Source: Trypanosoma brucei
Lineage: Eukaryota
Length of the DNA: 64,000 bases
Direction of reading: 5' to 3'
Assembly: GCA_000002445.1 (NCBI GenBank)
Contig: CM000208.1
Coordinates: forward strand, 1,088,001-1,152,000
Positions 9,156 to 52,443 of the stretch are shown piece by piece. The notes under the pieces were generated by a model. That model saw nothing but the letters and a program-made list of their open reading frames with translations. It was not told where the DNA came from and made no database searches. The translations under genes were made by a program, and so were the position numbers. Numbering within the stretch: position 1 is the stretch's first letter; every line of letters begins with the position of its first letter.

Positions 9156-10324
9156 AACTGAAAGGGGGAAAGCCTCCTATGTCCACAACCCGCGCTCGCA
9201 ACCAACCACCCGAGATGTAGGTATATGTTGTCGGGCGTGCAGGTGAATTCTACCCCACCCAACTTTCCAACTCCTATACAAGTCAGATGACGCGATACTG
9301 AGTAAGCTGGTTCAGAGATGGGAAAGAAGCCACACATATGCAATATGCTAACGCATACAGAAGACAAATGCATTTGTCAAAAAAAAAAAAAAATGCAATC
9401 AGACAATTTATGTGAACAGTCCTTTTCAGGGAAGCAAAAAAGTGACTAGAATGGAAACGTTATCGAAAAGAAACGAAAAGCCGAAGAGCACTCGGCAAAC
9501 AAACACCTTCTGTATATGCATAATATGCGCAGGGGTAGACCTCGCCGACTGAATTCACCCCCTTTACCGATATAATGTCAACTCAGATTCGGCTTCCAAC
9601 AGGATACGAAACCTCCCTTAAAGTGTGCTGAAACCTTCATGACAGACGACGACACAAAAAAAAAAAAAAGACATTCTACTTGTCATCATCAGGAAGCTTT
9701 GAAACTCCCCCGTCATACAACACCATTCTTCCTTCAATTAAGAACACGGTGCTATTGTTCAACGTAAACGACATCCTCCTATTCCACTTGAACGACACGA
9801 TGACGCGGATTCCCAACACGCGCAGTCCACAAGTGTCAGTCACAAGAACGGCATAGGTTTAATCCAGCAAGTGCATACAAAAACACACTTAGCTTTACCA
9901 TTTTGTATCTTGCATTGAATATAACCCTACAACAAAAGTTTTTCAAAATAGGGGGAAAATGCAAGTGTAAAAAAAATATGTACAAAGACACGATAAAAGT
10001 AGCCTCAAATTAAAAAAAAAATAAACTCATGATCAGACGTGTTGCCATCGACATGCAGATATAGCAATATAGATATTTTTCTTTCCAGCACCTCTTACCA
10101 CCTTTCTTGACAACGTTTATATCTTAGTAGCACCTTCAGTCTTTTGAATATAGCGTCACCCATTAAGAATAAACCAGAGGAATAGTTCGTGGGAGACCGG
10201 CTCTTCACTGACGGTGGCAGCAAAAATCCTGCTACCCAAACGAGGAAGTAGATCACATATTAGTAAACGCAAGAGGCTCTATTGTTTAAAAACTGTTCCA
10301 AGCACAACAAGTTTGTACTACAAG

Positions 10325-12000: not shown

Positions 12001-15000
12001 AGCCACAGATAACGTAATGAAATTGATAATCACTGGCACAGATAAGAAATTCCCAAGGGGAAACAGTACCCTCCTAACCTGCAAACACTGACAAGTGCTC
12101 TTTGTGTCGCTCACCTACTCTTCAATATCAAGTTAACATCAATAAAATATGTAACATACGAAGCGTCGGGACCGAAAGTCAAATATATATATATATATAT
12201 TATCATTATTATAACAGTGTTAATTATGCCAGAAACACTGCATCCCTCGAAAATTTGCAACCGAGTAGCGGAGTTTTCAAGAACGAAAAATCTAATAACA
12301 GTTTCACACAAAAAAATCATAACAACGTATCATACAAAACAATCAAGAAATAAAAGAAAACAACATTCATTTCGTTAAAGTTTGCTTTGGTGATTAATAT
12401 ATTAACAATGGAGTAAATGAAACTGTACATCGAAATAAACCCCACCATTTATGGGTGAACGATAAGTCTACTCATCAAAACATAATAACCAATGCCTCAG
12501 GGTTGGGTAAGTACAATATATACTTTCACACCTCCTCACCGGGGACTGAATGAACTAAACGATCGTTACTCCATCCCACCTTCACGTAACAGCCAAACGG
12601 AAATTCATCGGCATAAGCTAAAGCTGTTATTGCTAACGTGGAGCCTGCAGATAGCAAATCAACCGCTAAAACCCCAAAAAGATCACCGTCAGATAAGGCC
12701 TAACACAAGACCATACCATGCCTGCGGAGCACGTGTTCGAAAGTAGATGACAGCTACATTTTCTAAACCACCTGATATCTACATACATGACATCGTCCAC
12801 ATTCACATGCACGAAAAATGATCAGCGACAACACGGTCCCAACAGCGCGGAACCAAAGGCCCAAAGATGTCTAACAGGAAAAAAGGTTTATTACGGTCAA
12901 AAGAAGCAAGACAATACTGGTGAAAAAATAGGGCGTGACATCAATCCTACAAACGTATAAATATCGAGGCGGCACCTTTAAGCAATAAAAGGGTGGCTTC
13001 GGTGAAAATACACATCATTGTTTCGCCGGACAAACATGCTAACTTAGCACGCACACGCGCTCATACACACATAGGCATGTCGGCCCAGTATAAACAAGCA
13101 GACATCGGTTGTTCCGGGTAAAATGTTTATAATCAAATATGAAAAAAAATAAACGAAACATGGAAAGGAGGGTCCTGAGATAAAATTCGTCTCAACAAAG
13201 ACCCATCCACCAAGCTCCCGAATGCACTATGTAACAGAGTTACTCTAGTTACCGGCACGCGTGCTTACACGAATGTTACGTCCATCCTTTTGAGTAGTTA
13301 CTCACAAAGAAGACGACACCTCCACAGCACCCAGCCGGGAAATAACGGGGTCAAGATAAATAGAGATGCTTAATTTTGAGCGGGCATGAGTATGATCACA
13401 AAAACAATCCGTTAGCGCATTTTCAAATAGCAAACGTCCGTAAGGGCGCAACGAAGCCGTTGGCAGCAGTCAACAGCACATATGCATTTATAAATCTCCG
13501 AAAATAGAGGAATTACATCAACTAGGCCCATTTTGACAGACACAGTGGACCACGCGCTTGGCCGCCAGCTAACAAACGAGCGATAGGCAGCATTCTTTTG
13601 ACTTCCCATTCTTCCACCAGGGCCTCTGGCGGCGCCCGCCCACATGAAAGTTGGATGCCACGGCAACTATATCCTACGAGGTTGAACTCCCCGCAATGCA
13701 GCGAGTCTTGTAGGAGCGAACCCCCAGTAAGGTCCACGGTTCGTAGAACAACTGCTCTCCCTATTCATTTGACATTCGTTCCACTCCGCCCACGTCAATG
13801 AACGACAAAAGGTAGCCTCTGACATTGCTCAAATGACAAGAACAATTCTTTAGTGTTTTTTTTCTGAGAACATACACCACGCTAAATTTTTCTTTTTAAG
13901 TGCTTCATACACGAACTTGCCACTTTTGGCGAAATAGTACAACGGAGCCTCAACGATGGTTCCACAAATTTTTTTAAAAAATGGGCAAAAAAAAAATGTC
14001 AACAAGATGACGGCCAAATACACGAAAATGAGTGAGCCGCTTCCACGGGCACAGACAAACAAGCTGCCAGAAAGGAACAGAAGTCAGCCGCCCAGCCGAA
14101 CCTCCTCCACATCACCCAGACACTTTTTTGAGGCGGCTGCACTGCACGACCTAGAGTCCGCCCTGGTCTACAGTCGAAAGATGTACGGGGCAGCGCCAAA
14201 CCCTTGCCAACATTAATGACTACTGAAATGCGGGGAAACCTTCCGGCCGGTACGAGAGCGTGTCCCCAGGAGATTATTCATAGGGACAAAGTGGACTTCT
14301 GCCTTTTTCAGGGAGACACGCACGAGGGTCAGAGGAAGCACCCTGTCAAACGACCATGGTCACCGGTTCATTGGTTCTGAGTGCCCCAAAACGAACAATT
14401 GCGACGGGTCAGTGCCCGTTTGGGATGGAGTCGCCGCGCAGTTGAGATAGCTGAGACGGGTCAGGCTTTGGACGGCATGGTCGCTACGCAGTGCTCCCAA
14501 ACAATCAGCAGCCAGTTGTGACATCTGTCTCCTTCCCCCAAGGTCCCGGAAATTCGTAGGGAAAGTTCAGGGTGACTTTTCGAGAACCAAGACACGGAAA
14601 TAATCACAGCAGCGGCAAAACTTCACCACGCTGCCAGAGATTCCCCCGTTCCGGGACATGCAGACAGCAAGCCGATAGCAGATTGATGACTAGAACAGGG
14701 CTTTGCGGTTGGCGGCAACGGGCCCCGAACCGGACTGAAATAAGTATAAGTCTGCGCCTTTCCCATGGAATTTATCCCCTTTTTTTTCCACTGCGAGACG
14801 ACGGCGAGCCAAAATCGGGTGAACCCTGGACCGCGCTAACAACCAGATCATATTCTGTTTAACGGTCAGGGGCGCTGCTAAAGAAAAGGATTGTGTATTA
14901 TGAACGCCAAATGACCCCGTCCCCGCGGGTGTAGTGAAGGAGAAAAGCGAAATGGCAAATGCCCCTGAGCAAAGTGCGGTTGAGGCAAAGAAAAAGGGCT

Positions 15001-16474
15001 TTAAAGGGCAGCGAAGAATTGAAACAGACACTTCGATATCACTGCGTTTGCTATTCTCGTAGCGCTGGGAAAATCAATTCCAAAAGAGAGCTGTTGCGGC
15101 ACGGCCTGAACACCAAACCTCACTTCCGTCGGAGGGAGAATAGGGCAGTGTGCAAAATCGGAGATGCGACGCCCGTCGCGTGGAGGAGGGCCTTAGCTTA
15201 AACAGATGAATAAGGATAAAGAGATGGAGGCTTCCACAATATTCGGATGAGGGAAGAGCAGTTGGGTGCTGAATCAGATCCCCGGGAGACCCCCGCCGGC
15301 TGCAGGCGCTAAGATTACCCGCGGTAACACGCTGAAAAAGCGGCTACGGGAACGAGTGTTGGTGAATATACATGAGAACCTTTTCAGGAAGATACCAGCA
15401 ACTCTGCGAATCTTAATCCCCAGTACCACGAGTTATCAACTTCGGTGGTGCGCGACCGCTATGCGGGAGAACGGTGGGGTGCTTCACAGGTGCGTCGGGA
15501 CAAAAGGACACGGAGCTTGCTCTGTGACAGAGGCAACGGAGACGACCCCGGAACGATACGGTGTTCTCCCGCGGTTTCCACCCCTTTTCTTTCATATTAA
15601 AACTCCTGTGGCGGAAACCCCTGCGGGACCGAGGTCACAAAAGTCGCTGCCTTTTTTACTGGGAACAAAACACAAGGAAACGGTTAGTGGCGTAAAGTTT
15701 CGGTCCACGGAGTCGGAAATGTCCGGAAAAAAACGCACGCATAGGAGTCCAACCGTTGTGTGAGGAAGGTTCTGATTTGGGTGAAGTATCCACGGAATGC
15801 AAGAGCGAACCCTCCACGCTCATTGCTGGTTGTGGTGTTCTGCGGCGACATGCTGTCCAGCGCGTAATCCAGGCGAAAGACTTGCGAGTGTGAATACGAT
15901 GGCACCGCACAACGATTTTTCTCAACTTCATCTTCGTGAATTCGGTTGTGCTCTAAAGGAAATATCACATATTGCACTCTAGAGTATCGGAAGGGCCGCA
16001 GCGCGTCACGACCCAACGGGTGTGCTTAGTATCAGGGGGCGAACTAAGTGCAGCTGAGCCGTGCCTTGAAAAGTTAGTTCCCATACCTGGTTTAAAAACA
16101 GGAGTGTAAACATCCGCAGCGCGTTGTTTCGCTGTAGAGTATCGTGTGGGAGGTAGTTTAGCGACTTTGATTTGCCCCTTTTAAAAAACATTACGTTTAA
16201 TATTTTCAAATCTACTTTTGAATACCGAATTGTTGTTTTTCATCACTCACCTAATGTGGCATGGGAGTAATTCACATGATGTGACCCTACAAGGCGATCA
16301 AGATCTTTACAATAATAGCAATAATAATAATAGATTGTATGTGCCGTTATACTGTCATCCCTATCTCATTATCAACCGGTCTTGTGTTGATGTATGGTAC
16401 AACGAACCTCGGAAGTTTCCCTATAGTTTAACTACCACTTGCGATTGATATCCTCATCTTATTCTGCTTTAGTC
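12001..16474. other. Divergent strand-switch region (minus-strand genes to the left, plus-strand genes to the right); a presumptive RNA polymerase II transcription start zone
   Basis: No ORF in this 4.4-kb region exceeds 165 aa and none look protein-like. Gene orientation flips across it. It includes an A-rich part (12.1-14.2 kb) and a GC-rich complex part (14.2-16.1 kb). Confidence 0.6.
12183..12200. repeat. (AT)9 microsatellite
   Basis: atatatatatatatatat read directly. Confidence 0.9.
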
Positions 16475-36473: not shown

Positions 36474-37580
36474 ATGAGGCGGTGGGCCAGTTACACTTGC
36501 TTCGGTGCCATCACGATGCGGCTCCCCATTCCTAAGTTGGCGGAAAGGCATATGCACTCACCGGCGTCTCTGACGTGTCGAAAGGGAGTCCCTACAAGCA
36601 CGACCGCGGCGGTGGAAATGACTTACTTCCAGGCAATCAACTCTGCGCTCGATCTTTCACTTTTGCGCGACCCGAAGACGGTGCTGTTCGGGGAAGACGT
36701 CTCATTCGGTGGTGTATTCCGTTGCTCACTTGGCTTGGCTAAGAAGTATGGTTCTAAAAGGGTCTTTGACTCACCGCTTTCCGAGCAAGGCATAGTTGGC
36801 TTCGCAATTGGAATGGCTGCCGTTGGATGGAAACCAATTGCAGAGGTGCAGTTCGCAGATTACATATTTCCGGCTTTCGACCAAATTGTTAACGAGGCCG
36901 CAAAGATGCGCTTCCGCTCAGGAGGTCAGTTCTCCTGTGGTGGGCTCGTGGTGCGCTCTCCGTGCTCAGCTGTGGGGCATGGAGGGCTTTATCACTCCCA
37001 AAGTGTGGAGGGTTATTTTAACCACTGTGCCGGTGTCAAGATTGTTATGCCCTCCACTCCATCGGAAGCGAAGGGGTTATTGCTGCAATGTGTTGAGGAG
37101 GAGGATCCGTGTATCTTCTTTGAACCAAAGCTCCTGTACCGCTCCGCGGTGGAACTTGTTGAGCCATCGTATTACACAATACCGCTGGGAACCGGTCGGA
37201 TTGTCCGGGAGGGGAAGGATGTGACTATTGTCACGTATGGAACACAAGTTGCGGTTGCTTCGAAGGCGGCTCAGCGTGCGGAAAAGGAGGGCATCTCGGT
37301 GGAGGTTATTGACCTTCGGTCATTAAAACCATGGGATCGAGAGATGGTGGCGCAGTCCGTTCGGAAGACTGGTCGGGTAATCGTGACGCACGAAGCCCCT
37401 AAAACTAGTGGTTTTGGTGCGGAGCTTATCTCCAGCATCGTCGAGGACTGTTTTCTTTCACTGGAGGCGCCCCCGAAGCGTGTGTGTGGGTTAGACACGC
37501 CTCACCCGTTACATGAGCAGTTGTATTTACCGAATGAGGCGAAAGTATACGAGGCAGTGAAGGAAGTGATCGCGTTCTAG
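36474..37580 (+). CDS. 2-oxoisovalerate (branched-chain alpha-keto acid) dehydrogenase E1 component, beta subunit
   Basis: [83 protein letters not shown]...[33 protein letters not shown]...VCGLDTP matches BCKDH E1-beta block for block, including [29 protein letters not shown] and GxDTPFP. The ORF track starts at a GTG at 36396. I place the start at the ATG at 36474 ([10 protein letters not shown]..., a plausible mitochondrial presequence). The ATG at 36516 is an alternative. Confidence 0.85.
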   Translation: [368 protein letters not shown]

Positions 37581-40500
37581 GCAATATCGACATTCGTACA
37601 TTTTATTTTTTTTGAGGGATTTACCAGTGACTACCGTGCGTTGTCAATGTATCTGTTTTTCCATACATATCGCTGTACCTCCTGTGTGGCAGTAGAACGG
37701 GTATCAGTGAAGCTTCGGAAAAAATAAAACGTTTACAAACAACCCGAAGCAGAGGTGGTACGGGTTCACACGTGGATCCTGTGGTCACAACCAAATGTCA
37801 GTTTACTCAGCTCGCCTCTGTTTGTCCTTTTTATCTTTACTTGCGCCAACTGGCAATCTGGGGTAGTTGCAGAGAACTCTACTTCCTAGGAGGATTTCCG
37901 GTGTGTGGGGAAGTGATGTCTGCTCGGGTGGTTTCGTAACAAGGATGCGGCTGTTGTTTGGATCACGGCGTCCCTGTCGCTCCAACAGTGCAGCGGTTAC
38001 CCGCTCTTGGACCGATGCCCAAAAAGTAAAAAGCCATGACGGAGAGGAACCGTTGGTCGCTTGAGCTGCGGGACCGGAACCCGAAAAAAAAAGGTCAAAA
38101 TATCAAACAGCACAAATGGGTTTGCGCAGAACGTGGCTTTCAATCTAAGAGTGCAGGTGTACTAACATTGCGCGGGCCGCAGAAACACTACATGACCAAC
38201 GACAGTCCCTTTCCACCCCACACTGGCGGAACCATAATCCACACTGAATATGATAAAAAAACACACTCCAGTGAGGAATCTGTGGGTTCAAATTGATTTA
38301 GCAGAGAGGCTCGACAATACGTCATGGAATAAAGAGCAGAGGTCAGCTTTAGCACATCATTCCAGTGGTGGAGAAACGGATAGGCACACAAAGTGAAAAC
38401 CGACCGCATCAACCCAACACCAATGAACAAAGTGATAACACCACCAGTTCAACCCCTGGAGAAAATGAAGCGATATATGGACCTCGCGGCTACATATTTC
38501 ACACGTAAAATGGACTAGTGATACGTCACGGGATGAAATACTGCGAAGTACAACCGCAAACGGAGTCGCAAGAAATAAAGAGGCAACGGTAACTCGAAGA
38601 GAATGCAAGTATTCCAACTAAGGGCTCCCGAGCGCCGGAAACGAGAGGGCATCCAGTGAACTACCCAGCAGGCACATCTGAGCCGCTACAATGCACGCGA
38701 TGTGGCTTTGTATCACAATCAAAAGGGGGAACAACACCAAACACCAATATTCAACACCGCAGAGGCCATCCCCTGGAGAGTAACGCTGGTACAAAACGGA
38801 GCCGTTCCATCACAGAACAAGAGGTATCCCTCATTTGGGACACGGTAACTATAGGTGTAAATGACACCTGTTGCACGCAATGCCGTCATACGCATGTATC
38901 AAAAGACAGCCTGATGGGGCACTTCGGGGGAATGCATAGACAGCATCCCTTCTCCGTAGCAAAAGAATCTCCACCACCGCTCCGGAGCTTCAACGTCAGA
39001 GGATTTCATCTACACTTCACGTTCGTAAACCGAAATCAGACGTCCCACTCAACATCAGGTTCATCTATACATCGCCATCAAAAAACATGAAATCTGCGTT
39101 GAAAGGAAACATACACACTCCAACGACTGCGAAGGGAATCCCACCCACATACTCGTGCGCTCAAGCCTAAAGTGCTCCGCAGTTACTTCGGGCTTGAGGG
39201 CGAAAATATGCAGAAGATAGTGTTCACCAAGAACCTTGCACAATTCCTCCTAGAACTTGAGAAACCCCTCATTCTCTTCCAACATGTACTTTCTTCATTC
39301 GAGAGGAACACCCCTATAAAGGAGAATAGACTACACAAAAAGCTGCCCACTCCTCTGAATGAAAATTGTAAACTTCACTATGCTCTTCTACGCTTGGCTC
39401 AAAAAAAAAAAAAAGAGGCAGAAGCCTTTCACTCTCAAGTAAGCTGTTTTCGCCATTACGGAAGACCGAGGACTAAAAGCTGAACGTTTGCAACTGGTCA
39501 CGCATAACTAGTTCGGACATAACCTACAAATGTCTTCCGTAAAGCAAATATAGTGCGCTCCAACCTAGATGGCAATTCGTTGACGGCACGTCCACTGAGG
39601 AGCATTATAAAAAAAAAACGTTTAAGCGATTGAGGTCGCGACGACACAAGCAACTTGTACAGCGACCTCATAGATAATGAAATCGCCACCATCATTCGAT
39701 CAGCCGCACGACCGGCCGCCAGCAACGGCAGTAATGGGACGTGAAGATCGCTTTGATGCGCGTTTCACCCTAATCCAGTTTCGAGTGTAGCGTATTCCCC
39801 TTTGCGCTTCTGCTTTATGTCTCCCACCAAAATATCAACGATGCATATTAGGTGCACAGTTCTGCCCTTGTTTTCTTTGATTGCAATCTCATCTGCTATT
39901 CCACTGTTTATCCAAGCAACGTGGTGGGAGAAAATAAGCTGCACCGAAATCACCGCATTCCTTTTACTGACTGTGAAAATCACCCTTCCATACACAGCGC
40001 GGGATTCCATCCTCCGCGCGACTCTGTCTTTCATTGTTTCCAGTAACGTATTTAGCACCTTTTCAATTGGCACCGCTTCCGCACAATGACTGCATCCCAG
40101 TATTCAGATGTCCCTTTAATTCTGTATTCTTCCATGTTGCCGAAGATTACCGTTTCTGTGCCCGATGAAGCGTCTAAACTCACCAGTTCATTTGTTCAAA
40201 CGTTTCAGTCCTTATTGAATATCCCCATTTTTTTCGGCGTATGAGCCCTCCTCCATTTGTCTTTTGCGTTTGCTTTTATACCCACCCACGTATGGCAAAT
40301 TTGTGTACACTCTGGAGCCAATGTCCAAGGAGCTTTAAGTATGGAGTGCACCTTGATTTTTGGTGTCGGAGCACCAGACCTCCACTGAATTCAGCCATTC
40401 AGGTATTGGATGACTTCTAGGATATTGCCGGTTTATTATGTCTGAAAAGCATCCTCTTTTGGCGCTTGATTGCATGTAATATTCCGTCGCCCTCGTGTTT

Positions 40501-43500
40501 GCCGCTTTTCAAACAAATATCAGTCGTGCTTTTTTGAGCATGTCTTGTTTGTTTGCGTGCGACGAAATCTCAGCAATGTTGCCCACCAACTGGGGTTGGA
40601 TTCTTTTGTGGACTGGGTACGTTTCCTTTGCCATCCTGCACGGCCGTAGCGGAAAAACACGACGAGGGGATGCTGTTCTCGAGTTTTTGCTTTGTCTACC
40701 ATCTGTGTGTCTTCGTCCGCTAAAATCAACAATGCTCTGGAGAATCTGATCCGAGACCGGGCCTCAGCACAGCAGTGGGGAGTTTGAGATCCTTTGCAAG
40801 ATTTGCGGCATAACACAAGTGAAGGAACCGAGACCTGAATTTGGCAACCGAAAGGAGGATGAGGTGGCGGGGTTTGAGGCGATTGTGGGTGTTGACGGGA
40901 TCGCGGCAATGCCGGAACAACATGGAAGATGCCGTCAAAAAGACGATTAACATCTGCAGTGAGGTGGCAAAGAAACACAGCATTACAGCTCGTAGGGATG
41001 ATCGACGGAAGCGGAAAGTGTGCGGCAACGCTAGAAGAGATGTGTCACATTGGAACGGAGGCGGTGCGTGATTCCAGGAAAACGGGAAGTTGTTGGGACA
41101 ATTAAACCGGTGCTACCGGTAACAATATCGGTGCCCCAAGGGATGCAGAGCTTGAGAGAGCAACAGAAATGTTGGCAGGCGATAGCGATCCCATGAGCCC
41201 CATAATCACTTTAAGGAAACGTTTCACTGGACGATTTTGAGAGGAAAGGAAACGCGAAATCTGGGCGTGGCAGCCACATTGGCCGCTAGCAAGGAATGAT
41301 TTCAAGTTTGGGCGGAATATTTTACGGAAATGAACGAAACTGCATCCGGAACGAATCATCAGGAAGAACTAAGCCCTAAGACCAGTTTCCCTATTAAAGT
41401 TTATTTACCATTGACCTCACAAAAATTTTGAAACTCAACGGTGAATCTAGCGGCTTTTCGGCTACTCCCCCAGACCTGGAAAAAAAAAACAGTTTCCCTG
41501 AACCCGAAAAGCTCTGCCCGCTCAGCAAACTTACGCCATGCACAATCCCGTGAAGGTGACACATCCCCAAAACACTCTGCACAGCCCATTTCGCTGGACT
41601 GCACACTTCTTTCATACCGCTAATATTTTCACCCCTAAATTAACGTGCCCGGACACTCACATGTATACCTGTAAAATTATGCAAGTGCTTTGACGAAGCT
41701 ACACCCACGTTGTGTTGGGTGCTTTTGTAATCCTATGGTGTTCAGCGCTCTCCCATACTTTAAAAAGCATACTACGCCGTTGTTTTTAGTACTACACCCT
41801 TCCCGTTTCCATTGGCACGCCCTCCGTAGTGGCATTTGCCGCCAGAATCCCTGTTCTAGAGGAGGTTTGTTGCATTTTTACGCTTCTTTCGGTAGCGGCC
41901 GTTTGTACGCACAGGGTGGTGTACATGCGTATATGTAGTGGTTGTTATTTTTTATGGAAAAAAAAAGCTGTTGAACCCTGTGACTTTAAGGTGCTGAAAA
42001 TAAGATTGGGACGAGGTTACATCTTATCCGTGGATAACCTTATAGGTGTGGAAGTGGGGGGACCATTCTCGAGAGTTACTTGGGGGTCAAACACACATAC
42101 AAGCGGCAGGCAAATACACTGAAAGGGGTGTGCCCGTGTTGGTGTTTGTGTGTGCGCGCAAATGTCGCCCCTGGCGTTTTTAATGGATATGTAAGCTTTG
42201 AAAGCAACCTCCTAGGGATTTGAAACATCTGTTGGATTCTGAAACTTGACAATTTCAGACTCGCGCAACACTGAGTAGCCTTTTTGACTTACTTACGTTT
42301 TGTGACCAAGCGGAGAAGTGAGGGAGACGCGATGGCGAAGAACCACTTCTTCAGATTCACTAGTTGGGGTAACAAAAGTTCCAGCCCCCTTTCAGGCGTA
42401 GTGAACAGCGGAGGCACAACTAATGAGGGCGGTGGATTCTTCACCAACTTCGACCCACCTCATTAAAATGAATGCCTCCTTACCGCGCCAACGCAACGGC
42501 AGGTGGCTAAATCGCGCATATTTTTGTGCCCATTCCCTCGCCACACAACTCTATGAAAATATCTTCCTCGAGGAGCTAATGGGAAAACATATCTCAGTCA
42601 CCATTTGCGAACGCAACTTCGTATGTTGAAGCGGGGGTTGTGTGAGGTGGGAACCGCGAAGGAAAGGTTGTACGTTGTGGTGGCGGTTGTGAGGTGGCGC
42701 TGTTTTTTTTTTCCTCCCTTTTTTTCTTGAGTGGGGATTACGGGGTTGCCGGTTCGTGGAGTATTATAACGCATGCTTTCCACCTGTAAGCTGCGGTGGT
42801 CCTCCTTTCCCCCAATCATCTCGCCCCGTACGGACAATAATGGAAGTGAAGTTTGTTTTGAGTGTGGCGTTGTCAGACCATTTGGAGGAAGTTATAGTTA
42901 AGGGATATAAGTCCCCGTGGAGAAAGTAAACGCCTGTCCAAATACTTATTCTATGTCACATTGTACGGAAACGCCACCACCCATATACTGGTCGTACCGT
43001 CAGTTGAAGTTCTCCATCCTGGCGTCAACGAAGTGCTTTTAAGGGTTCTCCTAGCGTCTAAACTCGTCCACTTTCACTGATGCCGTTTGGGTACACTCCC
43101 TCCAACCCAACCTTAACTAGCCTCTCTACACACCGCTTCATATCTTCAAACACATTTTTGTACCACCGTGAACTTTTGTTCTACACCTTTATTATGACAC
43201 ACATCCGTAGGAAGTAGCATCCCCTCTCCGCCACAAAAAAAGAAAATTATTGGGTGCGACAGTGTTCCCAGTATAATGGCTCTCGCCATGTGTTTTTTGG
43301 TTTTATTTTTCAGTGAGCCGTTCGCAAAGGTGTATTTCCTCCTCCGTAAGCTTGGCCTGTGCTACAAACATTGATACGATATCATAATATTTCCACATAA
43401 CCCCCTCAATATCATGACTACCTCCCCACATGAACCACATTTGCTCCGATAAGCGCCTTCCCACACCCACACACACCCCCCACACACACACACGCTGACT

Positions 43501-44323
43501 GAAATCTTAAACTACATAGGGGAATACCCTATTTGCATCACAGCGAAATTCACCTTGGCTGTGGGAACCCCACCGAACAACTTCACGCTTGCAAATTTAC
43601 TCGGATCACAACGGATACTTAAAAATTTTCCCAACACAACTACATTCCACACCGCAGTGTGGCACCCCACGAGGTGTCCAAAATGAACATCCTCTCAATT
43701 TTCCTTATTCCTCACATACTTACAAAACAGAAGAGAAGCACATGCGGGGAGGAGGGGGGGGCGAGGAAAGATGCACCCAACCCATTTCCATCGGATATCA
43801 TAAATCACCAGGGGTAACTTGTTCTTTTTTTTTTTTTAAGTCTTCCCAAACCCTCCCCAAATATCAAAACGCCCCCCCCCCCAGCCCACAACACCACCAG
43901 AAATTGGTGGCAGAAATCGCTCCCCTCCCTTTCCGGTCTTTTCGTTGGCCGGTGAAGTGCAGAATGGAAAACATCACGTCGAGTTCACCTTCACTACGCA
44001 CCAACTATCCGCACTCTTCGCCTCCACAACGATGCGGTACATCCTCAGAACCCCACCACCTCCAAAAAAGAAGGCGGTGATGGAATGTTATTATCCCTGT
44101 CTTTCCTTCTTTTCCATCGTGAATATTAGCGCTATCAATAATACCCTCACATAATATCTCTACACAAGCCCATTACAGACACCGCTTCAGCTAGTTTTCA
44201 TCCCTTTGGCGGTATATCTCGATGGGGAAATTATGCGTCATTCACCCATGATATCATCACAACAAGTAAACATACCACACACCAATTCGGAGTGTCAGAG
44301 AATGTGGTATGATGTTGTTGGGT
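37581..44323. other. Convergent strand-switch region (transcription termination zone), 6.7 kb, gene-free
   Basis: Plus-strand genes end at 37580 and minus-strand genes end at 44324. Only short unconvincing ORFs lie between. Homopolymers cluster near the right edge: G10 at about 43747, T15 at 43815 and C13 at 43865. Confidence 0.6.
38593..39090 (+). pseudogene. ATG-less ORF encoding two C2H2-type zinc-finger motifs; a candidate remnant of a degenerate retroelement or decayed gene
   Basis: A stop-to-stop frame spans 38593..39090 with no ATG; the ORF track starts it at a GTG at 38656. It carries CTRCGFVSQSKGGTTPNTNIQHRRGH (C-x2-C ... H-x3-H) and CTQCRHTHVSKDSLMGHFGGMH (C-x2-C-x12-H-x4-H). It is isolated in a gene desert and flanked by stops in all frames. 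Confidence 0.3.
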
Positions 44324-45493
44324 CTACTTTTTATTCAGAGGTCCAATAAGCCACCGGGGGTTCGCGGCGTTTGAAACGTTGCAGACAGTACTAAATTTTA
44401 CGTACTTACGAGAGCCCCACACGGTGTGGATTTCAGTAGTATAACGTTCCAACAAGTATTTGTACGCTTCCCGTTGGGTGGAAGAGTCCCGTAGTGCCCT
44501 ATACCAACTCGTCTCGTTGATGAATTGGAGCATCTTTTCGCTTCGAGCGGCGGGTGGGCCTGGGAAGTGCAAGATCATGCCATTTTTAACCGGCACCCCG
44601 GACGGATAGTGAAAATATCGTGTCTCGTAATCGAGAGACATTATTCCCCTTCGAAGCAACAACTTTCGATTCGCATGTTTTGGCCTGGTAACACTCCATA
44701 TAAACACCATTGTCCACATGCTCTGGTCGCACCACCACTTGAAACTCCGTCGTTTCAGAGCGAAGAAAACCTCCAAAGCTTCCTTTAGTGCCCACACTCT
44801 GGCTATCATCCCTCCTCCATTAAGGTGTGATTCCCCCGAGGGAGTTTCCCTCAAAAGAGCTTGCGTTCCCTCTTTAATGGAAACCGCGAGTGCTCCCTCA
44901 TAGAGGTTCATACACATATCCCTCGGTTTAACCTTCCGAGTGTCTACACCCGTCATGATATACGTTTGTGGGGCATGGCAATTCTTTTCAGCGGCGAATA
45001 ATAACGGTGGTGCCATTTTCCCATGAAGAGTGTCTTCCTCGCTAAACAACTCTCGCGTGCTCGGTGTTGTGTTCATAAAATACTCGATTGCTTCTTCTCT
45101 TCTCGCTGCTTCTGAGAAGAACGTATCGCCGCCGTCAAATATCACCATCACATCATTATCCTGCATCCTCTTCCACAACATATACTTTCGAATCCACGCC
45201 CACCTCCATGCATGCACATAAACCGCACCTGCGCCCACCGTCGCAACTCTCACATTTGTAAGAACAGAACTCAGAAGCATTCGACACCACCCTGGGGAAG
45301 GTTTCGTTTGCACCACAACATAATACACTCCTGGCGAATGGTCATTTAAACTACTATTTTTCACCCACCGCTTGGCCTCCCTCTTCCTGAAATCCATTAC
45401 CCCCATAAACATTAACACAATCAACAGCATTACCGCCGCCATGACATATAATCTTTTTCTCGCATCTCCCCCAACCCAGGGCCCCTTTAACAT
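44324..45493 (-). CDS. Type-II membrane glycosyltransferase-like protein (short cytoplasmic tail, one TM anchor, ~340-aa lumenal domain with a DGGD acidic motif)
   Basis: The listed ORF 44324..45703 begins with a 70-aa F-rich translation of the pyrimidine tract. The first plausible ATG is at 45493 (MLKGPWVGGDARKRLYVMAAVMLLIVLMFMGVM...). The architecture and the VMVIFDGGDTFF motif resemble the trypanosomatid UDP-sugar glycosyltransferase family. Assignment is by architecture only. Confidence 0.55.
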   Translation of the reverse strand: MLKGPWVGGDARKRLYVMAAVMLLIVLMFMGVMDFRKREAKRWVKNSSLNDHSPGVYYVVVQTKPSPGWCRMLLSSVLTNVRVATVGAGAVYVHAWRWAWIRKYMLWKRMQDNDVMVIFDGGDTFFSEAARREEAIEYFMNTTPSTRELFSEEDTLHGKMAPPLLFAAEKNCHAPQTYIMTGVDTRKVKPRDMCMNLYEGALAVSIKEGTQALLRETPSGESHLNGGGMIARVWALKEALEVFFALKRRSFKWWCDQSMWTMVFIWSVTRPKHANRKLLLRRGIMSLDYETRYFHYPSGVPVKNGMILHFPGPPAARSEKMLQFINETSWYRALRDSSTQREAYKYLLERYTTEIHTVWGSRKYVKFSTVCNVSNAANPRWLIGPLNKK

Positions 45494-45910
45494 AAACCAA
45501 CCTTTCTCAGAAAAATGAAAAGAAAAAAAGAATACAGAAAAAGATTTTACAACAAAACAAAAAGGCATAAATAAGCAATATCCATACAGTCTCGATTCAT
45601 TGGAGGAGAATATGAGATAAGTGACAAACATGCCTCCACCGCAATATGGAACCACAACAACAAAAAAAAAAAACATCACCCGTTTAGTATATATAAACCA
45701 CAAAAAGAAATTATAGCCGCCTCCAGGGCAGCGTGTACGTATATTACGCTATAAATTGTAATGGAAATATATTTATTTAAAATAACGTTTGAGGATATGC
45801 GCTTTTGTATTCCACCGGAGAAGCGGATGCATACATATACGCATACACATATATACACTATGGTATACACAAAATAAAATAGCAAATTCGAATAAGAATA
45901 AAATAGTTGT

Positions 45911-47772: not shown

Positions 47773-49029
47773 TTCCAAACTTCCTGAAAACCAAAGTCAC
47801 ATTTTTAAAAAAAAAACACCATTGGAATATTTTCATTCATACAACACAAGCCCTCATATCAAAATACCATTCACAACAGTATGATTTAAAAATAGTGCAT
47901 TGAGTTGAAAACACTACATCATGCATAGCAGCGTGTCCACCGAATAACCCAATCCCACAATCACCATTGATTACACGTGGGAGACACCCACTAACAAGTG
48001 TGGTTATTTAACCTTTTTTTTTAAAAAAAAAGACGTTGTCATAAGTAAAAAAAAAACAGAAACACAAAGGCACACACACACACGTATTTATTTATTTATG
48101 TACGGGGAAGTAACTTTTATTTCATGTGGGCAGTATTAAAAAGACGACAAAATTGCGTAAAGAGGAGAGGCAGGAAAAGGAATTATGACAAGAATACAGA
48201 CACATGCATCTCCAACAAAATGTTATTGCAGCCGAGGGGCTCAGACATGTTTTAGGGGAAATACATAAAACACGGGCCCTTCTCTATGGCCAATGATTCA
48301 GAGGAAAAAGAAACAAAAAAAACAAAAAGAAACAACATATGCAAATCAACGAGCAGAACTGGAGGACAAAACAAATGACAGAGAGTACTTCAACTTCTTT
48401 TTCATTAATCCCCCCCCTTCCGTCCCGCACGAGTGGGATAAAAGTAACAAACAACTCGGCAACCAAAGTTTTTTTTTTAAAAAAAAAAGACTTCGTTTAA
48501 CAGAAACAAAAAAAACAAACAAAAACACACAATTATCTGTTAGAGGAATGGTCACGTAACCAATAAAACAATGCACTCATCCGAGACGAAGGATTTAACA
48601 AGCTGACAAATAAACGATACATAAAACCTCACGCAGCCTTTTGTTTAGCAAAAAGCCGAGTCGCAACAGGGCTCTATTAATTCGTTTTCATTATTGAGGT
48701 GACATGATAGTGAGACAATATCCATATAAGGATGGAAAGACACACAAGCACACACAAAAAAACAAACAAGGAAAGTTAATTACTTCTATTATGAAAGTAG
48801 AGTGCCCGGTATATCGCAGTTCTAACAACGATAGTGCTGTGAATTTCATGTAAACAGTTGGGAGTTAAACAACTCTGTGCAACATCATTGTGAGTTAAAG
48901 ACATACGCACATATTCTGTATTATCCATCCTCATCATTCTGCTACTTTCCAGTCATCTCTCCATCTCTATATATTTCTTTTTTTTTCTTATCTTATGGGA
49001 TAAGAGACATCTGGTTCCATATTAATACA

Positions 49030-49521
49030 TCAAAGTGGAATGTTGTGTAGATTTGGGCATTTGTGTGTGTCCGTTACTTCTGAGGAAATGGCATTTGTGT
49101 GATATCGCAATTTTAAATTCCACAGCACTTCACGTGTCGTTTCCTTGCGCTTAAGCGAATGGAGAAGAACTTCCACCTCCAGGTGTCCTTCATTTTCTCT
49201 TCCCACCACTGCGTAACTAAATTGGCCGCGCCATTTTCTCCTAATCAAATCATCTTTGAAGAATTTCATGAAGAGATTTCCCACACGATCGATCTCGCTG
49301 TGAGTTTGTGGGACTTTACACTTCTCTACCCATATTTCTTTTCGTGTTTCTGCCGGACTCCCAATAATATGATGAACAAATAAAGCCCATTCATCCTTTA
49401 GTGTGGCGGCTACGGGATTTCTTTTTATCATTTCCTCTAATTCGCTACAATCCGCCTCTGACATGTTTGGGGCGGGTGTTTCCCGCCTAAACTTTTTCAT
49501 AAACTTGCCGAAGAAACTCAT
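49030..49521 (-). CDS. Hypothetical protein (about 163 aa)
   Basis: The ORF track starts at a TTG at 49545. The first ATG is at 49521 (MSFFGKFMKKFRRETPAPNMSEADCSELEEM...). No recognised domain. Positioned between the spacer and the duplicated genes. Confidence 0.4.
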   Translation of the reverse strand: MSFFGKFMKKFRRETPAPNMSEADCSELEEMIKRNPVAATLKDEWALFVHHIIGSPAETRKEIWVEKCKVPQTHSEIDRVGNLFMKFFKDDLIRRKWRGQFSYAVVGRENEGHLEVEVLLHSLKRKETTREVLWNLKLRYHTNAISSEVTDTHKCPNLHNIPL

Positions 49522-49545
49522 TAAAGGAAAGGAAAAACAAAACAA

Positions 49546-51088
49546 AACAAGTTCACAAGCTGCTACGGAAATCTTCGCAAAAGAAAAGAAAAGAAAAAAA
49601 GGGAAAAAATGTACTGCGTGAAGAAGAAGAAGGAAAGAAAGAAGATAAGGAATATAAGGAATATAAGAAAAGCGTAGAATGAAGCAGAGACTTCCCCATC
49701 TTATCCATCATATATATATATATATATGAACAAGCGCTCATAACCCCACATTAAATAAACAAATTTGCATACACACTCGAACATGTGCAAACGACAAGAA
49801 AAAAGGGGGGAAAAAACTACCCTCATCTCAACGCCAAGACTGCCGGTACTCCTTGTTTTTTCTTTTGCTGTTGTTGTTACTGTTGTTTCTTTTCTTTTAA
49901 GATAACAGAATAAACACCGGCTCAAGCCACAACCGTCCATACAATAATCACTTTATCTCTTTCTCTCCCTCCTTGCTTCAAGCAAATCTTGCCGCCACCA
50001 CATGGGAAAGAGAAAGAAAGAGACACAGAGAGAAAGGGTGAGTTGGAAAACAAAAGAAAGAAAGAAAGAAAGCAGAAAAAAGAGGAAAAAAATAAATAAA
50101 TAATAGTGATATTAATAACGAACAAGTAAGCACATGAAAGGATGAAAGACAGGTGTTAAATACACATATAACAGCCCGTGCTCATGTGCAAACAAAACAC
50201 AAACAAAAGGAAGGAAAAGAAAAAGAAAAAAAAGAAAAAAAAGAGGGGGGGACGCACAAATGTAAGTAAGCAAAGCGAATAGTGAAAATGCCGACTCGCA
50301 CAAACCAGCGGTGGACGCCCTCACGCAAAAGCCACACGCATCAATACCAACAGTGGGGAAGGGGAAAAAAAAAACAAACAAAAGAGAAAAGAAAAAACAA
50401 AAAAAAACAAAAACGAGATCACCCCTCAGCCAAACCGCAAAGCGGAAAAGTAAAAAAAAAAAGGTGGGGAGTAATATGTTAATTCTGATAAAAACAAAAA
50501 CAAAGCACACGCAAAATAGATGCACTACGCAGAGGTCAAATAATGAAGTATCATTTAACAGATACGACAAAGATAAACAACCAAACAAAAAAGATAACAA
50601 TAACAATAGTAATAGTAAGGAAAATAACATAACACAAGTAAACCGCAAAAAAAAAAACGCCAAAAGAAAGCAAAAAAAAAAAGTACAGCAAGGAATGTGT
50701 GTAAAAGTACGGTAATCGACCAAAACCAGCGGTCCACCGTGTTGCTCCACACGCATATTTTGCCAACCGCCCACCTCCATCATCACCGCCTCCTCTCCAA
50801 TGAGGAAAAAAAAAAAAAGAAAAAAAAACAAAAAAAAAACTACCCTCCTTCCCCTCTTTGTTTTTTTTTGTTTTGGATCATCCCCTGCATTAGCCACAAT
50901 TGCTGTGCGTTTGTGTATGTGTGTGGGTAAATGAATATTTACAGAATTATTATTATTATTACTACTTTCCCCCACATACCACTATTGCAAAGAAACAAAA
51001 AAAAAAAAGAAAACTGTAACAAAAACGCAGTGTACGCATACATGTTACACAAGTATAAATGTATATATGCGTGTGCGTAGGAAGAACT

Positions 51089-51120
<32 letters not shown>

Positions 51121-52443
51121 TATTATTTCCTCAAGAATTTTGTCTTCTTCTTCTTTTAGATAATCAAAGACATTACAACAGTGATGAAGCACGTTGTGAG
51201 CATATTTCATGCAGGGGACGGGATGAGGTAAGGAGGAGTTAAAAGAAAGAAAGGAAAGAAAGAAAAAAAAAAGAAAGGGAGAGGAAAGATAAAAGAAGCA
51301 AGCAAAGCAGGAAGCAGGAAGCAAAGAAAAAGAAAGAAAGCAAGAAAAAAGCAAGAAAAGTTGCGCAAAGGTCAGGTACATGGTGACTTAACCAGACTTC
51401 GATTTGGGGTGGAGGAGGAGAAAAAAAAAACAGATGGAGAATCGGAGGGGTGAGAAGAGTTTTTTTCTTTTTTTTTCTTCCTTTGTCGTTGATGTTGGTG
51501 TCGCGGTGTCGAGGTGGAGGGAGGGCGCCGGGGGGAGAGGGAGACAGAGAGAGGATTTTTTTTTTAAAAAGGGAAGGAACGTTAGGCGCTGTGGCTGCCG
51601 GATCCCCCTTTATTACGTTTGTTCTTTTTTTTTTCTTTTTTGTTTCCCTCTTTTTTCTCATTCTTACCTTCCTTCCACGCAGCATCTCCTTTCGTTTCGG
51701 TCTCACACGTACCTCTTTACTTCCTTCTCGTTAAACTCCTTTTTCTTTTTCTTCCTTTTTTTTTATTTTCTCTAAGATGCTCCAGCATCATGGTAGCAGA
51801 ACCGACAATGATACTGGCTGATGTTGCGGGAAAGAAAAGAGAAGATAAGAAACAAGGGGGTACCCCAGTTGTTCTTTTCTTCCTTTGCTTTATTAGTTTC
51901 ATTTGTTTTTTTTAGTTTTTATCTTAATTTTGCGCCGCCGTTGTTGCTGTTGCCACACACCTCCCTCCGCTCCCCTACCTCCATTTCACCGAGTCAATAC
52001 AGTTTTGAACAGGCATACACATACAACAAAAAAAAACAATCAACGCCACTGTTTTGATTTTTTTTCTTTTTACACAGTAACGATGTGCTGCACAGCTCTT
52101 TTCGCCTTGCAGCACCACGTACACATACGCATTACATCGCAAATTTCCCTCGTTACAACGTGTTTAACGAAAATTTTCCTTCTTTCACTAAGAAAGCAAA
52201 CAAACAAACAAACAAGCCCTTGCCCAAGTTTTATTTCATTAGAAACAGTTTTTCTCTAACGCCTAACTTTCGCAGTCTTGACTTCCCTCATTTCCGCACC
52301 TGTTTGCTCCCATCCCCATCCCCATCGCCATTCCCATTCCTTTCATCCTTTTTCTTCCTCTTTTGTATGTGTTTTCCTCTTCCTCATTCGTCAGTCCATT
52401 TCTTCCTGTTGTCGTAACCCCTTTTCTCTCCATGAGCCTCCCA
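49546..52443. repeat. About 2.9 kb low-complexity intergenic spacer. The plus strand is purine-rich (GAAA/GA/A-run) from 49.55 to 51.4 kb, then pyrimidine-rich from 51.6 to 52.44 kb. Microsatellites are embedded
   Basis: Read directly: (gaaa)n around 50055..50077, (TA)13 at 51089..51115, (TA)8 at 49711..49727, a (tta)n variant at 50947..50965 and long A/T runs. The listed ORFs here (for example 50112..50975, F/L-rich) are translations of this low-complexity DNA. Confidence 0.85.

What the first reader, a model, noticed from the sequence alone, without database searches (positions are those of the whole stretch)
37581..44323. 6.7-kb gene-free convergent strand-switch region containing an ATG-less double C2H2 zinc-finger ORF
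Convergent regions of this size in trypanosomes usually hold tRNA genes or decayed retroelements. I found no tRNA-like A/B boxes or T-loops. I did find a 166-codon stop-to-stop frame (38593..39090) with two good C2H2 fingers and no ATG. Retroelement ORFs of the ingi/SLACS type carry such fingers, so this may mark a degenerate element. No reverse-transcriptase or endonuclease-like frames are nearby, so it could also be a decayed cellular gene. The right edge of the region carries G10, T15 and C13 homopolymers within 130 bp (43747..43877).
Basis: partly seen in the sequence, partly recalled or inferred. Interest (0 to 1): 0.5.

Follow-up and report, generated by a model that had tools for sequence, protein, structure and literature searches.

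The report
Truncated degenerate ingi-type retroposon relic
The "zinc-finger ORF" is the broken tail end of a known kind of dead jumping gene (a degenerate ingi-type retroposon, DIRE-like) that landed between two converging gene clusters on Trypanosoma brucei chromosome 10; it is ordinary, not a new gene.

Summary
The window is T. b. brucei TREU927 chromosome 10. The 6.7-kb convergent strand-switch region (37581-44323) is real and holds no tRNA, no Rfam RNA, no tandem array and no credible gene.

The zinc-finger frame lies inside a 1.53-kb dispersed repeat (38087-39618, + strand). This repeat is 93-96% identical to copies on other chromosomes. Those copies share an A-rich 3' end and have variable 5' ends. 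Full-length copies (about 5.8 kb) start with the Pr77 hallmark and carry a degenerate reverse transcriptase. They are colinear at protein level with a near-intact ingi element (summed E 8e-119).

The window's frame-repaired translation matches the ingi C-terminal finger region (38% over 73 aa, E 4e-12). The copy here is pseudogenised: the family ATG is at 38533, followed by an in-frame TAA at 38590 and a +1 frameshift at 39080-85. The ORF family evolves neutrally.

Some details were off: in-frame ATGs do exist, finger 1 is non-canonical, and the homopolymers are G8/T13/C11. This is an already known kind of element in a known kind of place, so interest is low.

The parts
36474..37580 (+). Last gene of the + strand cluster: 2-oxoisovalerate dehydrogenase E1-beta (XP_822681, T. 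b. brucei TREU927 chr10)
   Evidence: Transket_pyr and Transketolase_C domains. Exact protein match to the GenBank entry.
37581..38086 (+). Unique non-coding sequence between the stop codon and the retroposon fragment; presumably 3'UTR (inferred)
   Evidence: 98.8-99.0% identical to the syntenic loci of T. b. equiperdum and T. b. gambiense. No repeat matches.
38087..39618 (+). 5'-truncated, 1.53-kb 3' fragment of a degenerate ingi-clade (DIRE-type) retroposon
   Evidence: 93-96% identical to copies L002-L005 on other chromosomes. The short-read T. equiperdum OVI contig ends exactly at 38093. Strong A-rich skew of the sense strand, +0.32 to +0.38. Ends in A10.
38533..38592 (+). Start of the family's 228-aa ORF (MKYCEV...) ending in a premature in-frame TAA (GAA in other copies)
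   Evidence: Alignment to P0001 and 13 other full-length members.
38593..39090 (+).
   Evidence: 95% identical to P0001.
38692..38769 (+). Finger 1 relic, CX2CX17HX3H (non-canonical spacer). Its start, TSEPLQCTRC, matches the first ingi finger, TSEPTKCTEC
38872..38937 (+). Finger 2, CX2CX12HX4H, the same spacing as the upstream finger of L1Tc
   Evidence: the only strict match in the window, seen in 2% of shuffles. L1Tc peptide sequences from PMC2805920.
38914..39090 (+). GenBank-annotated 58-aa 'hypothetical protein Tb10.70.2890' (XP_822682), an artefact ORF inside the relic
   Evidence: Exact match. Siegel et al. 2010 noted more than 20% non-unique RNA-seq tags for it.
39080..39085 (+). A6 run carrying a +1 frameshift relative to the family. 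It creates the TGA at 39088-39090.
   Evidence: The intact orthologous ORFs in L006 and L007 read ...HQKHEICIERK....
39086..39220 (+). Out-of-frame tail of the family ORF (HEICVERK...AKICRR*)
39172..39483 (+). Downstream frame (…GLEGENMQKIVFTKNLAQFLLELEK…) homologous to the extreme C-terminus of the ingi polyprotein. It contains an internal A14 (39401-39414) that is not the element's tail.
   Evidence: BLASTP of the frame-repaired window translation against the ingi C-terminus: 38% over 73 aa, E 4e-12. P0009 gave E 6e-11.
39609..39618 (+). A10 terminal tail of the retroposon fragment. A possible A-rich target-site duplication with 38084-38092 is ambiguous.
40087..40606 (.). Second, unidentified repeat ('X'), 68-77% identical to a stretch 0.8 kb downstream of the chr3 copy, with a 65-nt core of about 95% identity (about 40495-40560)
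   Evidence: Only 91% identical to the orthologous loci, with differences clustered at 40290-40600.
39619..44323 (.). Remaining unique non-coding DNA of the convergent region; presumed 3'UTRs and transcription-termination zone (inferred)
   Evidence: No similarity to the retroposon family by blastn or tblastx. No Pfam hit, no Rfam hit, no tandem arrays. 97.6-99% identical to syntenic loci outside X.
43742..44080 (+). GenBank 112-aa 'hypothetical protein Tb10.70.2870', probably a spurious ORF. It overlaps the G8 (43754-61), T13 (43825-37) and C11 (43872-82) runs.
44324..45631 (-). Last gene of the - strand cluster (435-aa hypothetical protein in the syntenic annotations)
   Evidence: 99.3-99.4% identical to orthologues.

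Best explanation
The zinc-finger frame is not a gene. It is the decayed C-terminal finger-domain coding region of a non-LTR retroposon of the ingi clade.

Shown:
- A T. brucei-specific, degenerate, roughly 5.8-kb family of the DIRE type (degenerate ingi/L1Tc-related element) left a 5'-truncated copy of its last 1.53 kb here. The copy lies 0.5 kb downstream of the last gene of the + strand cluster, in the same orientation.
- The copy carries a premature stop and a frameshift. It is shared at the same site by T. b. gambiense and T. b. equiperdum, so it predates their split.

Inferred:
- The copy arose by target-primed reverse transcription, since 5' truncation plus an A-rich tail is the normal product of incomplete reverse transcription.
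- It is now a passive passenger in the RNA polymerase II termination zone.
- The other roughly 5 kb of the gap is unique non-coding DNA: 3'UTRs plus the termination zone.
For: - Organism and locus: exact protein matches to T. b. brucei TREU927 chr10 entries.
- Dispersed repeat: the ORF belongs to a 21-member cluster spread over many chromosomes of three T. brucei subspecies.
- Element limits: window 38087-39618 is 93-96% identical to four copies elsewhere.
- LINE-like ends: those copies share the 3' end. Their 5' ends fall at element positions 1, 1, about 2730 and about 3540, against about 4300 in the window.
- Target-site duplications: the two full-length copies are flanked by 10-11-nt duplications with one mismatch.
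- Pr77: full-length copies begin with the hallmark, scoring 35 and 26 against a shuffled maximum of 18. The reference sequence came from PMC1874656.
- Reverse transcriptase: RVT_1 is hit above Pfam's threshold in both full-length copies.
- Degeneracy: the frames are full of stops.
- Colinearity with ingi: tblastx against a near-intact ingi-type element in L004 is colinear over 3.8 kb at 27-53% aa identity, summed E 7.8e-119. That reference element has Exo_endo_phos_2 at 5e-13 and RVT_1 at 1e-41.
- Finger domain: the window's frame-repaired translation aligns to the ingi C-terminal finger region at E 4e-12. Finger 1 aligns with the first ingi finger.
- Neutral decay: variable sites fall 16/17/18 across codon positions, and dN/dS is 0.4-1.7.
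- Same insertion in other subspecies: present at the syntenic site in L006 and L007.
- Literature: DIREs are about 5-kb degenerate ingi-related elements in all trypanosomatids (PMC3820030), and retroelements cluster at strand-switch regions (PMC1868937; PMC4748587).
Against: - The window copy itself lacks every enzymatic domain and the Pr77 hallmark, so its assignment rests on its relatives.
- The 228-aa ORF alone finds no homologue outside T. brucei by phmmer. It reaches no Pfam zinc-finger threshold.
- The link to ingi needed a frame-repaired translation and a pairwise E-value. tblastn of the ingi C-terminus against the raw window was not significant because the match is split over three frames.
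- Endonuclease and RNase H remnants of the family were seen only by tblastx and by eye, not by Pfam.
- I could not check the curated TriTrypDB or Repbase label, so 'DIRE' is my classification.
- The copies are only about 3-5% diverged from one another, which is young for a 'vestigial' family.
Confidence: 0.9

Rival explanations
1. The 228-aa double-finger ORF is a domesticated, functional T. brucei-specific protein family, for example a nucleic-acid chaperone like C2-L1Tc. The TREU927 chr10 copy would be one dead member.
For: At least 12 copies keep an intact 228-aa ORF. These include the orthologous chr10 copies of T. b. gambiense and T. b. equiperdum. The rest of the element is riddled with stops. 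The C-terminal finger domain of L1Tc has chaperone activity (PMC5814959, PMC2805920).
Against: Substitutions are spread evenly over codon positions (16/17/18), and dN/dS is about 0.4-1.7. ORF identity equals that of the non-coding 5' part of the fragment. At about 2-3% divergence from the master copy, roughly half of 684-nt ORFs would stay open by chance (my estimate). Annotation lists only open copies, which is a bias. One conserved finger histidine is lost in P0006. No Pfam finger hit.
Confidence: 0.06
2. A decayed single-copy cellular zinc-finger gene that once ended the + strand cluster.
For: Same orientation as the cluster and position right after its last gene.
Against: Multi-copy on many chromosomes. 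Embedded in a retroposon with an A-rich tail. No homologue outside T. brucei among 1.84 billion representatives. Homologous to the ingi C-terminus.
Confidence: 0.01
3. A chance open frame with chance Cys/His spacing in A-rich non-coding DNA.
For: No Pfam zinc-finger hit. Finger 1 has an abnormal spacer.
Against: The strict CX2CX12HX3-5H pattern occurs once in the whole window and in 2% of shuffles. The frame is 95% identical to an annotated ORF family and aligns to the ingi fingers.
Confidence: 0.01
4. A remnant of a site-specific SLACS/CZAR (CRE-clade) element, which also carries fingers.
For: CRE-clade elements carry one or two zinc-finger-like motifs (PMC12278014).
Against: The family is colinear with ingi and has the Pr77 hallmark. 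The locus is not a spliced-leader gene array. No restriction-enzyme-like endonuclease signal was found.
Confidence: 0.01

Closest known systems
DIRE (degenerate ingi/L1Tc-related elements) of trypanosomatids
   Same: - About 5 kb long.
- Pr77 / 79-bp signature at the 5' end.
- Ingi-like domain order with many stops and frameshifts.
- Frequent location at strand-switch regions (PMC3820030, PMC1874656, PMC1868937).
   Different: - This family's copies are only about 3-5% apart, comparable to 'potentially active' TbRIME (median 4% from consensus).
- Full-length copies are 5.8 kb because about 1.1 kb is inserted between the RNase H region and the finger region. The insert begins with a 228-nt copy of the ingi/RIME 5' end.
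- I could not check the curated label for this locus.
Tbingi, the autonomous 5.2-kb LINE of T. brucei
   Same: - Same domain order and colinear protein similarity over 3.8 kb.
- C-terminal multi-finger region homologous to the window's frame.
- A-rich tail and target-site duplications.
   Different: - Only 27-53% amino-acid identity, with no nucleotide-level match apart from the 228-nt 5'-end piece.
- No long ORF.
- The ingi C-terminus has four or five fingers in about 400 aa. This family keeps two recognisable fingers plus one relic in about 215 aa.
C2-L1Tc, the C-terminal two-finger nucleic-acid chaperone domain of T. cruzi L1Tc
   Same: - Two CCHH motifs near the 3' end of an ingi-clade element.
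- Finger 2 has the same CX2CX12HX4H spacing as the upstream L1Tc finger (PMC2805920).
   Different: - No significant sequence similarity was shown here.
- No RRR/RRRKEK basic stretches.
- Finger 1 has a 17-residue spacer.
- The window copy is a pseudogene, so no activity is expected.
RIME / 5'-truncated LINE insertions in general
   Same: A non-autonomous fragment with an A-rich tail, left by target-primed reverse transcription.
   Different: RIME is a defined 0.5-kb fusion of both ingi ends. The window holds a plain 5'-truncated 3' fragment without any 5' hallmark.

Membership tests
ingi-clade non-LTR retroposon, degenerate (DIRE-type) | Pr77 / 76-79-bp signature at the 5' end of full-length copies | tested here: met
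   L002 5262-5337 and L005 5257-5332 align to the L1Tc Pr77 with scores of 35 and 26. The shuffled maximum is 18. The window copy is 5'-truncated and lacks it.
ingi-clade non-LTR retroposon, degenerate (DIRE-type) | Reverse transcriptase and ingi-like domain order (endonuclease, RT, RNase H, C-terminal fingers) | tested here: met
   RVT_1 is above threshold in two copies. tblastx is colinear with a near-intact ingi over 3.8 kb, summed E 7.8e-119. Endonuclease and RNase H are not seen by Pfam.
ingi-clade non-LTR retroposon, degenerate (DIRE-type) | Coding capacity destroyed by many stops and frameshifts | tested here: met
   No ORF longer than 135 aa upstream of the finger ORF in either full-length copy. 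The window copy has a nonsense mutation plus a frameshift.
ingi-clade non-LTR retroposon, degenerate (DIRE-type) | A-rich 3' tail, target-site duplication and variable 5' truncation (target-primed reverse transcription) | tested here: met
   Common 3' end and five different 5' ends. 10-11-nt flanking duplications for L002 and L005. For the window copy the duplication is ambiguous because both junctions are A-runs.
ingi-clade non-LTR retroposon, degenerate (DIRE-type) | The window fragment itself is homologous to an ingi-clade protein | tested here: met
   Frame-repaired translation against the ingi C-terminus: 38% over 73 aa, E 4e-12 pairwise. TSEPxxCTxC is shared at finger 1. The unrepaired tblastn was not significant.
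Tbingi proper (autonomous element) | Nucleotide-level identity to ingi and a long ORF | tested here: not met
   Only a 228-nt internal piece is 88-90% identical to the ingi 5' end. The rest is 27-53% identical at protein level.
SLACS/CZAR (CRE clade) | Insertion in spliced-leader RNA genes and a restriction-enzyme-like endonuclease | tested here: not met
   The locus is a convergent strand-switch region between protein-coding genes. The family is colinear with ingi, whose reference copy has an Exo_endo_phos_2 endonuclease.
Classical C2H2 zinc finger (Pfam zf-C2H2 families) | Profile match at or above the gathering score | tested here: not met
   Best hits are E 2.1 (window frame) and 0.67 (P0001), at 8.6-10.2 bits against a cut-off of 27. 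Only the Cys/His spacing of finger 2 is canonical.
Convergent strand-switch region holding tRNA or small RNA genes | tRNA, snRNA or snoRNA genes in the gap | tested here: not met
   ARAGORN found none. Rfam found none at gathering score or at E<=1.
T. brucei centromeric strand-switch region | Kilobase-scale AT-rich tandem repeat array next to the retroelements | tested here: not met
   Tandem Repeats Finder reports only microsatellite-size rows. The definition is from PMC1868937.
siRNA-producing convergent transcription unit / pol II termination zone | DCL2-dependent small RNAs from both strands; H3.V, H4.V and base J marks | not testable with these tools
   Tschudi et al. list Tb927_10_v5_CTU38 (1,123,000-1,138,000) with 310 wild-type reads and 0.6% of that in dcl2-/-. 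Equating it with this locus rests on the syntenic coordinates of L006 and L007 and is inferred.

The most novel reading that the evidence does not exclude
This degenerate family may not be a fossil. Supporting observations:
- Its copies are about as similar to one another as 'potentially active' RIME copies.
- They show fresh-looking target-site duplications and graded 5' truncations.
- Most keep the 228-aa finger ORF open.

The family could therefore still be mobilised in trans by ingi, perhaps helped by the ingi 5'-end piece it carries, with the finger ORF serving as its own chaperone.

In addition, the repeat segments in this termination zone diverge 3-9 times faster between subspecies than their unique flanks. 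That suggests ongoing ectopic gene conversion at convergent strand-switch regions.
Probability: 0.12. Interest if true: 0.4.

Novelty: already known. Interest (0 to 1): 0.12.

Why it matters
It matters mainly as an annotation clean-up.
- The 'hypothetical protein, conserved' / 'T. brucei spp.-specific protein' family (Tb927.6.3400 and relatives, and the 58-aa Tb10.70.2890 here) is a retroposon relic that evolves neutrally. It should not be treated as a lineage-specific gene family.
- The locus adds one more example of retroelement debris parked at a convergent termination zone, which is well documented for trypanosomatids.
- The locally raised divergence of the two repeat segments between subspecies hints at ectopic conversion, but it is a side observation.

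Tried and rejected
- Pfam on all six frames of 37581-44323 found nothing relevant. The first attempt failed because the tool refuses stop codons.
- A word-indexed protein search with the degenerate RT fragment found nothing at E<=0.01.
- A full phmmer search of the 228-aa ORF against 1.84 billion representatives gave only itself and a low-complexity artefact, P0016.
- Exact-protein look-ups for TREU927 proteins were not on record in the contig index. T. b. equiperdum and T. b. gambiense entries worked instead.
- Pfam on hand-picked endonuclease-like and RNase H-like segments of the family found no hit.
- tblastn of the ingi C-terminus against the raw window was not significant, because the match is split over three frames.
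- A search for further retroposon remnants in 39630-44323 and in the divergent region at 12.1-15.3 kb found none.
- A Pr77 scan of the window found nothing above the shuffled range.
- A centromere reading was rejected because there is no tandem array.
- The A14 at 39401-39414 was first considered as the poly(A) tail. It was rejected because the family continues past it and it lies inside a conserved frame.
- A literature search for Tb927.6.3400 found nothing. The Eukaryotic Cell 2009 paper on ingi subfamilies is not held.
Full report
**Where the window comes from**

Three proteins encoded in the window match GenBank entries of Trypanosoma brucei brucei TREU927 chromosome 10 exactly:
- 2-oxoisovalerate dehydrogenase E1-beta, 36474-37580, XP_822681.
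- The 58-aa 'hypothetical protein Tb10.70.2890', 38914-39090, XP_822682.
- The 112-aa 'Tb10.70.2870', 43742-44080, XP_822684.

Genes run on the + strand from about 15.3 kb to 37580 and on the - strand from 44324 onward. So 37581-44323 is a genuine 6743-bp convergent strand-switch region.

**Checking the observation**

What holds up:
- ARAGORN finds no tRNA.
- Rfam finds nothing at gathering score in the whole window, and nothing meaningful at E<=1 in the gap.
- Tandem Repeats Finder finds only microsatellite-size rows.
- Pfam on all six frames of the gap gives no reverse transcriptase, endonuclease or zinc-finger hit.
- The stop-to-stop frame 38593-39090 is there and is 166 codons long.

What needs correcting:
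- The frame is not ATG-less. It has two in-frame ATGs inside the second finger, and GenBank used the one at 38914.
- Finger 2 (38872-38937) has canonical CX2CX12HX4H spacing. It is the only such match in all six frames of the 64-kb window, and it occurs in 2% of shuffles of the gap.
- Finger 1 (38692-38769) has a 17-residue spacer.
- No Pfam C2H2 model comes near its threshold.
- The homopolymers at the right edge are G8, T13 and C11, not G10, T15 and C13.

**The frame belongs to a dispersed repeat**

A protein search with the frame returned one cluster, 95% identical. Its representative is a 228-aa 'hypothetical protein, conserved' of TREU927. The cluster has 21 members on many chromosomes of T. 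b. brucei, T. b. gambiense and T. b. equiperdum, some named 'T. brucei spp.-specific protein'.

Against these members the window copy shows three features:
- The family's start ATG is at 38533.
- An in-frame TAA at 38590-38592 replaces a GAA.
- A +1 frameshift in the A6 run at 39080-39085 throws the last 44 codons (39086-39220) out of frame.

The 'ATG-less ORF' is therefore a pseudogenised copy of a 228-codon frame.

**Limits and nature of the repeat**

I fetched four copies with 10-kb flanks from T. b. equiperdum (L002-L005).
- BLASTN shows window 38087-39618 is 93-96% identical to all four.
- L002 and L005 share 5.75 kb with each other. L003 starts about 2.7 kb in, L004 about 3.5 kb in, and the window copy about 4.3 kb in. 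All share the same A-rich 3' end.
- The two full-length copies are flanked by 10-11-nt duplications with one mismatch.
- A short-read T. equiperdum OVI contig ends exactly at window 38093, as expected at a repeat boundary.
- The fragment also stands out by a strong A excess on the + strand.

A graded 5' truncation, a common A-rich tail and target-site duplications are the signature of a non-LTR retroposon.

**Which retroposon**

The full-length copies have these properties:
- They begin with the Pr77 hallmark. Alignment scores to the L1Tc sequence published in PMC1874656 are 35 and 26, against a shuffled maximum of 18.
- They carry an RVT_1 match above Pfam's threshold in both copies.
- They have no ORF longer than 135 aa upstream of the finger frame.

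By luck, locus L004 also holds a near-intact ingi-type element on its minus strand. That element has Pr77, the 2A motif DVEENPGP, Exo_endo_phos_2 at 5e-13, RVT_1 at 1e-41, a weak RNase H match and several C2H2 fingers.

Comparison with that element gives the following:
- tblastx of the degenerate family against it is colinear from position 1 to about 3790, at 27-53% amino-acid identity and summed E 7.8e-119.
- About 1.1 kb then follows that ingi lacks. It opens with a 228-nt copy of the ingi/RIME 5' end at 88-90% nucleotide identity.
- Colinearity then resumes at the first ingi finger: TSEPTKCTEC in ingi against TSEPLQCTRC in the window.

The tail also matches. The window's frame-repaired translation aligns to the ingi C-terminus at 38% over 73 aa, E 4e-12. 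An equiperdum family member gave E 6e-11. The repair followed the family's own reading frames, not ingi, so the test is not circular.

The family is thus a degenerate ingi-related element of the kind the literature calls DIRE: about 5 kb, with a 5' signature, riddled with stops, and common at strand-switch regions (PMC3820030, PMC1874656, PMC1868937). The window holds its last 1.53 kb.

**Is the ORF a gene?**

Across five copies the variable sites fall 16, 17 and 18 on codon positions 1, 2 and 3. Pairwise dN/dS ranges from 0.4 to 1.7. The ORF is no better conserved than the non-coding part of the fragment upstream of it. The data set is small (51 variable sites), but it points to neutral decay.

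A full phmmer search of 1.84 billion representative proteins found no relative outside the family. Many copies are still open probably because the family is young, and because annotators list only open frames.

**The same site in other subspecies**

The syntenic loci of T. b. equiperdum (L006) and T. b. gambiense (L007) are colinear over 10.4 kb. Both carry the same fragment at the same place, with the 228-aa frame intact. The insertion therefore predates the split of these subspecies.

Identity of TREU927 to the two other subspecies, by segment:

| Segment | Identity |
|---|---|
| Flanking coding sequence | 99.3-99.7% |
| Unique non-coding DNA | about 98-99% |
| Retroposon fragment | 96.5% |
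| Second repeat (X), 40087-40606 | 91%, differences packed into about 300 bp |

The two other subspecies agree with each other at more than 99% over the retroposon fragment and X. This pattern suggests ectopic gene conversion of the repeats. I did not test it formally.

**The rest of the gap**

Outside the fragment, 39619-44323 shows no similarity to the retroposon family, no RNA family and no protein domain.

One 520-bp stretch (40087-40606) resembles a sequence 0.8 kb downstream of the chr3 copy. It includes a 65-nt core at about 95% identity. Its nature is unknown.

The G8, T13 and C11 runs lie 440-570 nt downstream of the - strand gene's stop. They overlap a probably spurious GenBank ORF.

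From established knowledge of T. brucei, convergent regions are RNA polymerase II termination zones and yield DCL2-dependent small RNAs. Tschudi et al. list a chr10 unit, CTU38 at 1,123,000-1,138,000, with low read counts. This unit probably corresponds to the locus, judging from the syntenic coordinates. That identification is inferred.

**Verdict**

The frame marks a degenerate ingi-type retroelement. RT and endonuclease frames are missing because the copy is 5'-truncated. The 'decayed cellular gene' alternative is rejected.

This is a known kind of element in a known kind of place in a reference genome, so interest is low. The practical value is in annotation: the 'T. brucei spp.-specific protein' family is retroposon debris.

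Noticed in passing
window 40087-40606 (core about 40495-40560); L002 11903-12426: A second, unidentified repeat. It is 68-77% identical between this gap and a site 0.8 kb downstream of the chr3 retroposon copy, with a 65-nt core at about 95% identity. It has no Rfam, Pfam or Pr77 match.
   Followed up: partly
window 38087-39618 and 40290-40600, compared with L006 and L007: Both repeat segments are much more diverged from the orthologous loci of T. b. equiperdum and T. b. gambiense (96.5% and 91%) than the unique flanks (98-99.7%). Those two subspecies agree with each other at more than 99%. This looks like ectopic gene conversion tracts.
   Followed up: partly
window 39621-40086, compared with L006 and L007: Mosaic relationship. 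TREU927 and T. b. equiperdum are 98.5% identical here, but T. b. gambiense differs from both (92-93%). This is the opposite grouping from the neighbouring segments.
   Followed up: no
L002, L003, L004 and L005 at about 9141-9376 (element positions about 3887-4115): Every longer copy of the degenerate family carries an internal 228-nt copy of the ingi/RIME 5' end, including a second Pr77 hallmark (88-90% nucleotide identity). It opens a roughly 1.1-kb insert between the RNase H and finger regions. The window copy starts inside this insert.
   Followed up: partly
L004 15300-20718, minus strand: A near-intact ingi-type LINE next to ESAG1 and VSG genes. It has Pr77, the 2A motif DVEENPGP, an 858-aa endonuclease-RT ORF, RNase H and several C2H2 fingers. 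I used it as the reference for the homology tests.
   Followed up: yes
L001 (T. equiperdum OVI contig CZPT02000552.1), end of contig = window 38093: The short-read contig stops exactly at the 5' edge of the retroposon fragment. This is an independent sign that the sequence beyond is repeated in the genome.
   Followed up: yes
window 43742-44080 (+), 38914-39090 (+); L006 14049-14231 and L007 16077-16487: Public annotations place small 'hypothetical protein' ORFs (58-136 aa) in this gap, and the ORFs differ between the three assemblies. They look like annotation noise rather than genes.
   Followed up: partly
window about 47800-52000: A low-GC stretch (0.376-0.395) with an unusual density of A runs of 10-13 nt, about a dozen between 50365 and 51430, lying between - strand genes.
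   Followed up: no
window about 12115-15265: A divergent strand-switch region lies in the same window, where the - strand and + strand clusters part. It has no similarity to the retroposon family.
   Followed up: partly
flanks of L002, L004, L005 and the window copy: The insertion sites all read A-rich followed by GGAT or GG (AAGGAT, AAAAGGAT, AAATGAAT, AAAAAAAAAGG). This hints at a target preference like that described for the ingi endonuclease.
   Followed up: no
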